DNA from: the human T2T-CHM13v2.0 reference genome, Homo sapiens
Length of the DNA stretch: 64,000 nucleotides
Direction of reading: 5' to 3'
Assembly (NCBI GenBank): GCA_009914755.4
Contig: CP086569.2
Span: forward strand, 33,056,001-33,120,000
The position numbers and the translations under genes are program-made. Shown here piece by piece: positions 1 through 64,000 of this stretch. Below the pieces are notes generated by a model, which saw only the letters and a program-made list of their open reading frames with translations, searched no databases and was not told the DNA's origin. The stretch's first letter is position 1. Each line of letters starts with the position of its first letter.

Positions 1-297
1 TTATAATATATAAAAATTATAATATGTACTACAAATATATATATTATATATCATATATGATATAGTACCTTTGTTATATATCATAATACATAAAAATGTG
101 TATTATGTTATCTATAATTATATAATTTCATATATAAGATGTATAATATGTATCATATATTATATATGTTATGTAATATATATAGTATATATAAGATGAC
201 ACAGGATAAATATTATATACTATGACATATAAAATATATCAGGTTATATGTTACATATAAGGCATAGCACATAACATGTAATATATATCATATATAA

Positions 298-595
298 TTT
301 TTTTTTAGACAGAATCTTGTCCTGTTGCACAGGGTGGGGTACAATGGCGCCATCTTTGCTCACTGCAACTTCTGCCTCACGGGTCCAAGCGATTGTCCTC
401 CCTCAGCCTCCCAGGTAGCTGGGACTACACCACACTGGGACTACACCAGCTGCCACCATGCCTAGCTAATTTTTTGGATTTTTAGTAGTGACAGCGTTTC
501 ACTGTATTGGCCAGGATGGTCTTGATCTCTTCACCTTGTGATCCCCTTGCCTTGGCCTCCAAATTTGCTGGGATTACAGGCCTGAGCCAAGATCC
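298..595 (-). mobile_element. Alu SINE fossil embedded in the DYZ2-type unit (part of the amplified repeat, not an independent insertion)
   Basis: Reverse complement reads as an Alu, from the poly-A tail (T9 run at 298-306) to the ggcctgagccaagatcc 5' end, with recognisable right and left monomers. All copies share a ~17-bp internal duplication (ctgggactacacca appears twice). Confidence 0.85.
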
Positions 596-1140
596 ATATT
601 TTTTAAATGAAAAAAAATTTCAAAGGTACTCTGCTTGGTACAATAATCAAATGTATAAACTGAGGAATAAAACATAACCATGAAACCTACTTATAACTGC
701 ATATGGAAAATACAGAGGATAATTTTTTAAATAACATATTTTGAAAGCCTTAACTAGTAATTTGAAGAGTTGGCATTTGAAAGGCCAGTATGAATATACC
801 TTCAAAGCAGCAACACAGGTTCCCCATGAGAAAAAGCAAACACAGGGAAAATAAAAACACAAAGGTTCAATCTCTTCTGACCTTTGAAAGACACAGCACA
901 GACAGTGGTCCTTAGGACGAAGAGCAGGAGACCCCTAATTCCGTCACCATGGCGATAGGGCATAAACATTGCTGGGTGAGGGCACAATCCACATTGTGAG
1001 GTCCAACTGCTGCCAGGAAGACAGGAGTGCTTTTACACAGACCGAAAGGTCATTGAAGGCTCAGAGTTTTGTTTCAAGAACTGAATCCCAAGCCCACACG
1101 TTATTAGGCTGCGCTTCTTAAAACAAGTTATGAGATGGGA
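596..1140. other. ~545-bp GC-normal segment of the DYZ2-type unit, of unknown derivation; recurs once per unit except in unit 13
   Basis: Lies between the Alu 5' end and the start of the AT-rich block (gagatgggaaaaagggcacccacaaacatacg). Carries the recurring 71-aa and 61-aa minus-strand ORFs, which I treat as non-coding. Confidence 0.6.
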
Positions 1141-61700: not shown

Positions 61701-62265
61701 AGAATGGACTCGACTGGTACGGACTCCAATGGAATGGAATCGAATGGAAGGGAATCGAACGGAATGGACTCGAAGGGAAAAAACTGCAATGGAAAGGTCT
61801 CGAATGGAATGGAAATTAATGGAATGGAATGGAATCGAATGAAATGGAGTCAAAAGGAATGGAATCGAATGGCAAGAAATCGAATGTAATGGAATCGCAA
61901 GGAATTGATGTGAACGGAACGGAATGGAATGGAATCCAAAGGAATGGAATAGAATGGAATGGAATCGAATGGAAAGGACTCGAATGGAAATCACTCGAAT
62001 AGAATGCAATTTAATAAAATAGGATCAAATGGAATGGAATGGAATGGAAAGGAATCGAAACGAAAGGAATGGAGACAGATGGAATGGAATGGAACAGAGA
62101 GCAATGGTATAGAATGGAATGGAATCATCTGGAATGGAATTGAATGGAATGGAATAATATGAAATGGAATGGAATGGAATGGAATGGAATACCCTTGAAT
62201 TAAATGGACTGGAATGGAATGGACTCGAACAGAGTGGAATGGAAAGTGTTGAGATAGAATGGAAT
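58707..62265 (+). repeat. DYZ1-type unit 8 (3,559 bp)
   Basis: Anchor spacing; contains an uninterrupted (GGAAT)~12 run at ~60396-60455. Confidence 0.85.
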
Positions 62266-64000
62266 GGACTCCTTCGGAATGGTGTAGTATGCAATGCAAT
62301 CGACTGGCAGGGAATCAAAAGGAATGTAATGGAATGGATTGGACTGGAATGCAATGGACTCGAATAGATTGGAAACGGAATGCAAAGGAATGGAATGGAA
62401 TAGTATGGAATGGAATGGAAAGGAATGGAGTGGAATAGACTAGAGTGGAATATAATGGACTGGAAAGCAATGGACTGGAATGGAACTTTCTTGAATGGAC
62501 TGGAATCAAACGGAATGGAATGCAATGCAATCAAATGGCATAGAATAAGATAGAATGAAAGAGAATCAAATGGAATTGAATGGAATGGAATCGAATGGAT
62601 TGGAAAGGAATAGAATGGAATGGAATGGAATTGACTCAAATGGAATGGACTAGAATGGAATGGATTCGAATGGAAGGCAAAGGAATGGAATCTATTGGAA
62701 TGGACTGTAATGGAATGCAATGGAAGGGATTGGAATGGACTCGAATGGAATGGACTGCAATAGAAAGGATACGAATGGAATGAAAAAGAATTGAATGGAA
62801 TAGAACAGAATGGAAACAAATCGAATGAAATGGAATGGAATAGAAAGGAATGGAATGAAATGGAATGGAAAGGATTCGAATGGAATGCAAACGAATGGAA
62901 TGGAATCGAACGGAATGGAATAAAATGGAAGAAAACTGGCAAGAAATGGAATCGAAATGAATGGAGTGTTATGGAACGGACTCAAAAGGAATTGAATGTA
63001 ATAGAATGGAGTGGAGTGGACTCGAATATAATGGACTTGAATGGAATGAAATCACATGGAATGGGAACGAATGGAATGGAATGGAAAGGAATGGAATCGA
63101 ATGGAAAGGAATCGAATGGAAGGGAATGAAATTGAACCAACAGGAATGGAAGGGAATAGAATAGACCGTAATGGAATGGACTCGAATAGAATGGACACGA
63201 ATGCTCAAATTGAATGGGCTCGAATGGAATGGAAAAGAAAGGAATGTCATCGAATGGAATTGAATCGATTGGAATGAAATCGCATAGAATGGAGTGGAAT
63301 CAAATGGAATTGAATCGAAAGGAAAGGAAGCGAATGGACTGAAATGAAATGGAATGGAATTGAATGGAAAGTAATGCAATGGAATAGAATGGAACGAAAT
63401 TTCACGGAATGGAATCAAACTGAATGGAATCAAATCAATGGAATCTGATCAAATGGAATGGAAAGGAATTGAATGGAGTAGATTGGATTGGATGGGATTG
63501 GAATGAAATGTACTGGAAAGGACTCGAATTTCATGAAACGGAATGGAATGAATTGGAACGGAATGGACTCGAATGGAATGGAATGTCATGGAATGGCATC
63601 AAATGGAATGGCATCAAATGGAATGGAATCGAATGCAATGGAATGCTATGGAATGGAATGGAATGCATTGGAATGGAATGTCCTCTAATGGAATGGATTC
63701 GAGTGGAATGGAATCGAATATAATGGAGTCGAATGAAATGGAATTGAAAAGAATGGGATCGAATACAATGGAATATACTGGAATGTAATGTAATGAACTC
63801 GAATGTAATTGACTGGAATGGAATGTATATGAATGGAATGTAATCGAATGGAAAGTAATCCAATGGAATAGAATCTAATGCAATAAAATCGACTCAGATA
63901 GAGTAGAATGTAATGGAATGGAGTGCAGTGCAATGGAATGGAATGGAATGGAATGCAATGGAATGGAATGGAATGGGATGGATTGGTATGGAATGGATAG
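62266..64000 (+). repeat. DYZ1-type unit 9 (partial, cut by the window end)
   Basis: Anchor at 62266. Confidence 0.8.

What the first reader, a model, noticed from the sequence alone, without database searches (positions are those of the whole stretch)
1..64000. Entire window is satellite heterochromatin (DYZ2-type then DYZ1-type), most consistent with a Yq12 block boundary; no gene system present
Two different tandem satellite families abut: a 2,420-bp Alu-containing AT-rich composite repeat and (GGAAT)n arranged in ~3.56-kb higher-order units. This pairing matches the DYZ2 and DYZ1 families that alternate in the human Yq12 heterochromatin. Related HSat1B and HSat3 arrays also exist on acrocentric short arms, so chromosome assignment from sequence alone is uncertain.
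Basis: partly seen in the sequence, partly recalled or inferred. Interest (0 to 1): 0.5.

Follow-up and report, generated by a model that had tools for sequence, protein, structure and literature searches.

The report
Human Yq12 DYZ2–DYZ1 satellite junction
The whole window is ordinary, already well-described human Y-chromosome long-arm heterochromatin, where a block of the 2.4-kb DYZ2 satellite meets a block of the 3.55-kb DYZ1 satellite, and it holds no genes.

Summary
Bases 1-34662 are 14.3 tandem copies of an AT-rich composite repeat with a modal unit of exactly 2,420 bp. Each copy carries one old, 5'-truncated Alu on the minus strand. Bases 34663-64000 are GGAAT-type satellite organised in 3,539-3,571-bp higher-order units.

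Every published DYZ2 (HSat1B) and DYZ1 (HSat3A6) feature I could test is met:
- 2,420-bp unit length and the 'ACATACG' heptamer once per DYZ2 unit
- GC of 23.7% and 38.6%, and one CpG per 153 bp and per 35 bp
- one HaeIII site per DYZ1 unit, and 2,146-bp HaeIII fragments in DYZ2
- of 14 published HSat2/3 subfamily-diagnostic 24-mers, only the Y-linked HSat3A6 one is present (12 exact copies)

A chromosome 15 short-arm HSat1B/HSat3 junction is the realistic rival, and its HSat3A5 marker is absent. An independent metagenome contig spans the same junction at 99.67% identity, so the join is not an assembly artefact. Thirteen short contigs filed under bacterial species match the DYZ2 units at 98.7-99.7%, the known pattern of human contamination.

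No gene, tRNA or curated RNA family is present, and the long ORFs are translations of the pentamer repeat. I could not align the window to a telomere-to-telomere human assembly.

Verdict: already known, low interest.

The parts
1..34662 (.). DYZ2 (HSat1B) array: 14.3 tandem units, modal length 2,420 bp. The window starts inside a unit, so the array continues beyond base 1.
   Evidence: 24-mer lag of 2420. Unit table and pairwise identities. GC 23.7% and one CpG per 153 bp, against the published 24% and 1 per 150 bp.
590..1163 (.). GC-richer, non-Alu segment of a canonical DYZ2 unit (the part the papers call HSATI). It ends in the heptamer ACATACG at 1157-1163.
   Evidence: GC 0.26-0.54 in 110-bp windows. 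ACATACG occurs once per unit, the heptamer named in the published 2,420-bp consensus.
1164..2718 (.). Extremely AT-rich segment of a canonical DYZ2 unit. It is full of imperfect palindromes, and most length variation among units arises here.
   Evidence: GC 0.07-0.24. 81 inverted-repeat pairs in one unit. TRF periods of 7 and 230. Published as '>85% AT'.
2719..3009 (-). Ancient 5'-truncated Alu of a canonical DYZ2 unit; its poly-A tail reads as a T-run at 2719-2727. The other copies end at 589, 5429, 7849, 10269, 12689, 15109, 17281 (truncated), 19699, 22117, 24676, 27096, 30800 and 33189.
   Evidence: A weak match to the Alu-derived mir-1268 at 402-468 on the minus strand. Published as 20% diverged from AluY and 5'-truncated.
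15110..17281 (.). Variant DYZ2 unit of 2,172 bp. A 246-bp deletion removes the end of the AT-rich part and the poly-A half of the Alu.
   Evidence: Reference-unit positions 2000-2245 are missing. The Alu match covers only consensus positions 13-168.
27097..30800 (.). Variant DYZ2 unit of 3,704 bp with a 1,287-bp internal tandem duplication of the AT-rich part.
   Evidence: Two overlapping alignments to the reference unit, positions 1-2070 and 541-2420. ACATACG occurs twice, at 27664 and 28951. GC is 0.131 over 28001-30000.
30801..34662 (.). Diverged array-edge DYZ2 units: one unit of 2,389 bp and a final partial unit that breaks off inside the AT-rich segment at about position 1,470 of the unit.
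   Evidence: About 90% identity to all other units, which are 96-99.6% identical to each other. BLAST gives 88.5-88.8%.
34655..34670 (.). DYZ2/DYZ1 junction. Homology to DYZ2 ends and homology to DYZ1 begins at base 34662 (…CATAT|GGACTCC…), with no filler sequence.
   Evidence: BLAST of the junction against distant DYZ2 and DYZ1 units. The independent metagenome contig PKQM01000722.1 spans 33504-35344 at 99.67% identity with no gaps.
34663..64000 (+). DYZ1 (HSat3A6) array with the GGAAT strand on +. It holds about 8 higher-order units of 3,539-3,571 bp and runs off the window end. It starts at position ~1459 of a unit, counting the HaeIII site as 1.
   Evidence: HaeIII sites at 39482, 43035, 46606, 50145, 53708, 57247 and 60801. 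Unit identities of 95.5-100%. 12 exact copies of the HSat3A6 24-mer. GC 38.6% and one CpG per 35 bp, against the published 38% and 1 per 35 bp.
36260..36280 (.). Site of a 685-bp deletion in the first full DYZ1 unit (reference-unit position 3156 joined to 287). It removes that unit's HaeIII and EcoRI sites.
   Evidence: Global alignment to a reference unit. No HaeIII site lies between 33383 and 39482.
44845..59200 (+). Very recent tandem duplication of a two-unit (7,102-bp) DYZ1 segment.
   Evidence: 44845-52098 equals 51947-59200 with 2 mismatches in 7,254 bp. Units 46606-50144 and 53708-57246 are 100% identical.
50009..50162 (+). Example of the 154-bp interval between two classical Y-specific DYZ1 PCR primers. 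It recurs once per unit, for example at 57111-57264 and 60665-60818.
   Evidence: Exact matches to both 23-mers in the right orientation. I recalled the primer sequences from memory and found no paper in the library that prints them.

Best explanation
The window is a piece of the human Y-chromosome long-arm heterochromatin (Yq12) that covers the boundary between one DYZ2 (HSat1B) block and the adjacent DYZ1 (HSat3A6) block.

It encodes nothing. It is constitutive satellite heterochromatin whose sequence is shaped by its own turnover.

What the sequence shows directly:
- Units are copied and lost in register, producing near-identical neighbours and multi-unit duplications. The likely process is unequal sister-chromatid exchange and gene conversion, which is inferred.
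- The interior of the DYZ2 array is homogenised to about 99%. The last two units at its edge have diverged by about 10%.
- Length variants arise by internal deletion or duplication in the AT-rich part of DYZ2. In DYZ1 they arise by slippage in steps of the 5-bp motif.

What is inferred from the literature rather than shown here: the chromosomal location, the exchange mechanism, and heterochromatin formation with DNA hypermethylation.
For: DYZ2 membership:
- Modal unit of exactly 2,420 bp, equal to the published Yq12 DYZ2 consensus length, and 'ACATACG' once per unit.
- Three-part anatomy of a GC-richer segment, an AT-rich segment and a 5'-truncated Alu about 23% diverged from AluY.
- GC 23.7% and one CpG per 153 bp, against the published 24% and 1 per 150 bp.
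- In-silico HaeIII fragments of 2,146 bp, matching the classical 2.1-kb male HaeIII band as I know it.

DYZ1 membership:
- GGAAT base repeat.
- One HaeIII site per 3,539-3,571 bp, against the published modal fragment of 3,569 bp.
- GC 38.6% and one CpG per 35 bp.
- Only the HSat3A6 diagnostic 24-mer is present (12 exact copies). The other 13 subfamily 24-mers have no hit with up to 1 mismatch (against Table 1 of PMC4022460).
- The recalled Y-specific primers match exactly at 154-bp spacing.

Human origin and a real junction:
- A metagenome contig is 99.67% identical across the junction.
- Thirteen whole contigs filed under bacterial species match at 98.7-99.7%. This is the contamination pattern reported for Y HSat1B and HSat3.

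Turnover:
- An identity gradient towards the DYZ2 edge, as published.
- A 7,102-bp duplication with 2 mismatches in 7,254 bp, and a perfect 2,245-bp repeat at lag 2420.
- All nine DYZ1 gaps of 15 bp or more are multiples of 5 bp.
Against: No human reference assembly was available, so the location rests on diagnostic features and not on an alignment.

I tested only the single most common diagnostic 24-mer of each HSat2/3 subfamily, not the full published sets. HSat3A6 also has a minor reported presence on chromosome 7.

None of the six full HaeIII fragments has the published modal length of 3,569 bp, although unit length is known to vary.

The AluY consensus and the PCR primers came from memory.

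The window shows one junction only, not the alternation of blocks.
Confidence: 0.93

Rival explanations
1. The window comes from an acrocentric short arm, most plausibly chromosome 15p, where an HSat1B array lies next to HSat3.
For: HSat1B occurs on the acrocentric short arms. On chromosome 15 an HSat1B array is separated from the main HSat3 array by a diverged HSat3 block.
Against: The marker 24-mers of the acrocentric HSat3 subfamilies (A1, A2, A4, A5, B2-B5) are all absent with up to 1 mismatch, while the Y marker HSat3A6 occurs 12 times. The 3.55-kb unit with a single HaeIII site is the male-specific DYZ1 organisation. The DYZ2 units have the exact Yq12 consensus length of 2,420 bp. Here HSat3 begins directly as a DYZ1 unit with 95-99% identity to the units further into the array, not as a separate diverged block.
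Confidence: 0.04
2. The junction is an assembly artefact: two unrelated satellite contigs or reads were joined chimerically.
For: Satellite regions are error-prone in assembly, and the switch is abrupt with no transitional sequence.
Against: An independently assembled public contig (PKQM01000722.1, 1,841 bp) crosses the same breakpoint with 6 mismatches and no gaps. It also reproduces the unusual diverged edge unit. Divergence of the DYZ2 units rises gradually towards the junction, as expected for a real array edge.
Confidence: 0.02
3. The window is an orthologous satellite region from a non-human great ape.
For: GGAAT-type satellites are shared among great apes.
Against: The window matches, at 98.7-99.7%, contaminant contigs in bacterial assemblies. 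It also matches human-derived diagnostics: the 24-mer taken from HuRef reads, the human Yq12 consensus length and the heptamer. Satellites turn over too fast for such identity between species; that last point is established knowledge, not tested here.
Confidence: 0.01
4. The satellite hides a functional coding or structured-RNA gene.
For: 37 ORFs of 120-305 aa lie in the HSat3 part. There are weak Pfam matches to Extensin_1 and Pentapeptide_4.
Against: All the ORFs are periodic translations of CATTC/GGAAT (for example HSIPF repeats), and most start with TTG. Pfam scores of 21-29 bits fall far below the cut-offs of 38 and 105 bits. No ORF of 120 aa or more lies in DYZ2. There is no tRNA and no Rfam family at gathering score.
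Confidence: 0.01

Closest known systems
DYZ2 / HSat1B of human Yq12 (2,420-bp consensus, Hallast et al. 2023 preprint 10.1101/2022.12.01.518658; Rhie et al. 2023 preprint 10.1101/2022.12.01.518724)
   Same: Unit length of 2,420 bp. The order AT-rich part, 5'-truncated ancient Alu, GC-richer HSATI-type part. The ACATACG heptamer. GC of 24% and one CpG per ~150 bp. Higher divergence at array edges. Length variation concentrated in the AT-rich part.
   Different: Nothing of substance. Individual variant units (2,172, 2,559, 3,704 and 2,389 bp) and an edge diverged by about 10% are the kind of variation already described.
DYZ1 / HSat3A6 of human Yq12 (Altemose et al. 2014, PMC4022460; Hallast et al. 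2023)
   Same: GGAAT/CATTC pentamer base. A higher-order unit of about 3.55 kb with one HaeIII site. The HSat3A6-specific 24-mer. GC of 38% and one CpG per 35 bp.
   Different: Unit lengths here are 3,539-3,571 bp, and none equals the published modal 3,569 bp. The first unit carries a 685-bp deletion. There is one very recent 7.1-kb two-unit duplication.
HSat1B/HSat3 neighbourhood on chromosome 15p (preprint 10.64898/2025.12.16.694519)
   Same: An HSat1B array lies next to HSat3.
   Different: Chromosome 15 HSat3 belongs to subfamily HSat3A5, whose marker is absent here. The two arrays there are separated by a diverged HSat3 block, whereas here DYZ1 units start directly at the breakpoint.

Membership tests
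DYZ2 / HSat1B | Tandem unit of about 2.4 kb (published Yq12 consensus 2,420 bp) | tested here: met
   Modal unit of 2,420 bp: 7 of the 13 full units, with two more at 2,418 bp. Published value read.
DYZ2 / HSat1B | Composite unit: very AT-rich part, 5'-truncated ancient AluY about 20% diverged, and a GC-richer HSATI-type part | tested here: met
The AT-rich part has GC 0.07-0.24 and the GC-richer part 0.26-0.54. Published description read.
DYZ2 / HSat1B | Heptamer ACATACG where the HSATI part meets the AT-rich part | tested here: met
   One copy per unit at the expected place, for example 1157 and 3577, and two in the duplicated unit. Published in the paper read.
DYZ2 / HSat1B | GC of about 24% and about one CpG per 150 bp | tested here: met
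   23.7% and one CpG per 153 bp.
DYZ2 / HSat1B | RepeatMasker/Dfam call of HSATI plus Alu | not testable with these tools
   No Dfam or RepeatMasker is available. Rfam gives only a weak match to the Alu-derived mir-1268.
DYZ1 / HSat3A6 | Built from the pentamer GGAAT/CATTC | tested here: met
   32.9% of 5-mers are rotations of GGAAT, against 0.3% in the DYZ2 part. TRF reports a period of 15 over 34687-63997.
DYZ1 / HSat3A6 | Higher-order unit of about 3.5-3.6 kb with a single HaeIII site | tested here: met
   HaeIII fragments of 3553, 3571, 3539, 3563, 3539 and 3554 bp. Published modal fragment of 3,569 bp.
DYZ1 / HSat3A6 | Carries the HSat3A6-specific 24-mer and not those of other HSat2/3 subfamilies | tested here: met
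   TCGTTTCGATTCCTTTCCATTCCA occurs 12 times exactly on the minus strand. The 13 other subfamily markers have no hit with up to 1 mismatch. The markers come from Table 1 of PMC4022460. Only one marker per subfamily was tested.
DYZ1 / HSat3A6 | GC of about 38% and about one CpG per 35 bp | tested here: met
   38.6% and one CpG per 35 bp.
DYZ1 / HSat3A6 | Amplified by the classical Y-specific primer pair giving a 154-bp product | tested here: met
   Both 23-mers match exactly, facing each other across 154 bp, in four full units and with 1-2 mismatches in three others. The primer sequences are from memory and were not found in the paper library.
Yq12 location | DYZ1 and DYZ2 arrays directly adjacent, as in the alternating block structure | tested here: met
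   The two arrays abut at 34662/34663. Only one junction fits in the window. Published structure read.
Yq12 location | Best alignment to Yq12 of a complete human Y assembly | not testable with these tools
   No human assembly is available in any collection offered.
Acrocentric (chromosome 15p) HSat1B/HSat3 junction | HSat3 of an acrocentric subfamily (HSat3A5 on chromosome 15; A1, A2, A4, B2-B5 on the others) | tested here: not met
   No hit with up to 1 mismatch for any of these marker 24-mers.

The most novel reading that the evidence does not exclude
The diverged DYZ2 edge together with its exact breakpoint into DYZ1 may be a conserved 'junction module'. It would be present in many copies because Yq12 grew by duplicating multi-block segments, and could then serve as a marker for reconstructing the order of block duplications. 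The one supporting fact is that an independent contig matches the junction at 99.67%, while the same edge unit is only about 88-91% identical to every other DYZ2 unit in the window. Large duplications spanning several blocks are already reported, so this would refine known results and would not be a new phenomenon.
Probability: 0.5. Interest if true: 0.12.

Novelty: already known. Interest (0 to 1): 0.07.

Why it matters
It matters little beyond bookkeeping. The window can be labelled Yq12 satellite heterochromatin and excluded from any search for gene systems. Its long ORFs are pentamer-repeat translations and should not be called as genes.

There is one practical point. Fragments of this satellite sit in public 'bacterial' genome records, including one placed inside a 5-Mb scaffold, so matches to it in microbial data should be read as human contamination.

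Tried and rejected
- **Rfam at gathering thresholds** over the whole window found nothing. The permissive scan of one unit gave only an Alu-derived mir-1268 match far below its gathering score, and a chance sraA hit. Rfam therefore cannot confirm the Alu on its own.
- **Literature searches for the Y-specific primer sequences** failed twice, so that test rests on my memory of the primers.
- **My first partition of the DYZ1 array** assumed a full first unit. This was wrong in register. BLAST and a global alignment showed a 685-bp deletion instead.
- **The apparent GC dips at 6-10 kb and 18-24 kb** are mostly aliasing of 2-kb windows against a 2.42-kb period. Only the dip at 28-30 kb reflects a real AT-rich duplication.
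- **The junction pattern was absent from the bacterial and archaeal genome collection**.
- **Coding potential** was considered and rejected.
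Full report
**Observation.** The window splits cleanly in two. Up to about 34.6 kb, GC is 0.13-0.27 with no strand skew. Beyond that, GC is 0.38-0.40 with a strong G-over-C and A-over-T skew. Tandem Repeats Finder reports AT-rich short-period arrays in the first part and one continuous period-15 array over 34687-63997.

In the first part, 12,066 24-mers recur at a lag of exactly 2,420 bp. In the second part, 24-mers recur at 3,548-3,562 bp and at 7,102 bp.

**Anatomy of the first array (1-34662).** They cover consensus positions 13-288 at 76-77% identity. 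One copy is truncated.

Using the Alu end as an anchor, the unit lengths are 2420 (six times), 2172, 2418 (twice), 2559, 2420, 3704 and 2389 bp, followed by a final partial unit. A canonical unit, read on the plus strand, has three parts:
- a GC-richer segment of about 570 bp that ends in ACATACG
- a segment of about 1,550 bp with only 7-24% GC, full of imperfect palindromes
- the reverse-oriented Alu

The variant units are explained by simple events:
- a 246-bp deletion that takes out the poly-A half of one Alu
- a 1,287-bp internal duplication of the AT-rich part
- smaller length changes in the AT-rich part

**Anatomy of the second array (34663-64000).** A third of all 5-mers are rotations of GGAAT. 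HaeIII cuts once per unit, giving fragments of 3553, 3571, 3539, 3563, 3539 and 3554 bp. Units are 95.5-100% identical to each other.

Bases 44845-52098 equal 51947-59200 with two mismatches in 7,254 bp. This is a very recent duplication of a two-unit, 7,102-bp segment.

The array starts at position ~1459 of a unit. The first full unit lacks 685 bp, including its HaeIII site. All nine gaps of 15 bp or more against a reference unit are multiples of 5 bp.

**The junction.** Homology to DYZ2 ends and homology to DYZ1 begins at base 34662, with no filler sequence.

The DYZ2 units far from the junction are about 99% identical to each other. Identity then falls to about 97.5%, then 96%, and to about 90% for the last two units. 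The DYZ1 side stays at 95-99% at the substitution level.

A scan of public metagenome contigs for a 30-mer across the breakpoint found one contig, PKQM01000722.1. It matches 33504-35344 at 99.67% with no gaps. The junction is therefore real. The diverged edge unit also exists elsewhere, either at the same locus in another man or as a duplicated copy within Yq12.

**Comparison with the literature.** Rhie et al. describe Yq12 as interspersed blocks of two satellites:
- DYZ1 is a Y-specific HSat3 subfamily with units of about 3.6 kb.
- DYZ2 is HSat1B, made of an ancient AluY 20% diverged from consensus, a region over 85% AT, and a GC-richer region.

Hallast et al. give the following:
- a 2,420-bp DYZ2 consensus that includes the heptamer ACATACG
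- GC of 24% for DYZ2 and 38% for DYZ1
- one CpG per 150 bp for DYZ2 and per 35 bp for DYZ1
- greater divergence at array edges
- a modal HaeIII fragment of 3,569 bp for DYZ1

The window gives a 2,420-bp modal unit and ACATACG once per unit. It gives GC of 23.7% and 38.6%, and one CpG per 153 bp and per 35 bp.

Altemose et al. list one diagnostic 24-mer for each of 14 HSat2/3 subfamilies. Only the HSat3A6 marker (chromosome Y, with a minor presence on 7) is present, in 12 exact copies. The other 13 have no hit with up to one mismatch.

Two classical Y-specific PCR primers, recalled from memory, match exactly and face each other across 154 bp once per unit. I could not find a paper in the library that prints them.

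**Chromosome and species.** HSat1B is reported on Y, the acrocentric short arms and chromosome 10. HSat3A6 is reported on Y and, in minor amounts, on 7. Only Y carries both.

The serious rival is chromosome 15p, where HSat1B lies near HSat3. That HSat3 belongs to subfamily HSat3A5, whose marker is absent here.

Human origin is supported by 13 short contigs filed under bacterial species. They match the DYZ2 units over their whole length at 98.7-99.7%. This is the contamination pattern Rhie et al. reported for Y HSat1B and HSat3.

A direct alignment to a complete human assembly, which would settle the location, is not possible with these tools.

**No gene system.** There is no tRNA and no Rfam family at gathering score. 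ORFs of 120 aa or more occur only in the pentamer satellite and are periodic translations of it. Their Pfam scores are far below the curated cut-offs.

**How it works.** This is non-coding constitutive heterochromatin. The sequence directly shows in-register copying of units, a homogenised DYZ2 interior with a diverged edge, and length changes by internal duplication, deletion and 5-bp-step slippage.

The process behind these features, unequal sister-chromatid exchange and gene conversion, is inferred. It agrees with the published interpretation.

**Verdict.** The feature is already known and of low interest.

Noticed in passing
L006:5897-6920 (NZ_HF570958.1, Nostocoides japonicum T1-X7, 5.16-Mb scaffold): A 1,024-bp DYZ2 fragment with GC of about 0.40, 97.85% identical to window 165-1188, sits between two 100-N gaps inside actinobacterial sequence of 65-78% GC. 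It is a human satellite contaminant scaffolded into a bacterial chromosome record.
   Followed up: partly
L002-L005 and L007-L015 (contigs filed under Mycobacterium, Bifidobacterium, Streptomyces, Azospirillum and other genera): Thirteen short contigs (617-2,497 bp) in species-representative bacterial assemblies are 98.7-99.7% identical to the window's DYZ2 units. Twelve match over essentially their whole length, and L014 over 925 of its 1,543 bp. This is human Y-satellite contamination of the kind already reported.
   Followed up: partly
L001 (PKQM01000722.1) = window 33504-35344: A metagenome contig reproduces the DYZ2/DYZ1 junction and the diverged edge unit with 6 mismatches, five on the DYZ2 side and one on the DYZ1 side. 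I could not decide whether it is the same locus in another man or a duplicated junction copy.
   Followed up: partly
window 44845-59200: A two-unit (7,102-bp) DYZ1 segment is duplicated in tandem with only 2 mismatches in 7,254 bp. The array here briefly has a 7.1-kb period.
   Followed up: yes
window 1-4665: Bases 1-2245 are repeated exactly at 2421-4665, a perfect 2,245-bp match between neighbouring DYZ2 units.
   Followed up: yes
window 30801-39481: The two array edges differ. The last DYZ2 units are about 10-12% diverged from the rest of the array. The first DYZ1 units are 95-99% identical at the substitution level and differ mainly by 5-bp-multiple indels and one 685-bp deletion.
   Followed up: partly
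window 46567-47312 and 53669-54414: Two of the DYZ1 units carry four EcoRI sites spaced 95, 555 and 95 bp apart, a 650-bp internal sub-repeat signature. The other units have a single site.
   Followed up: no
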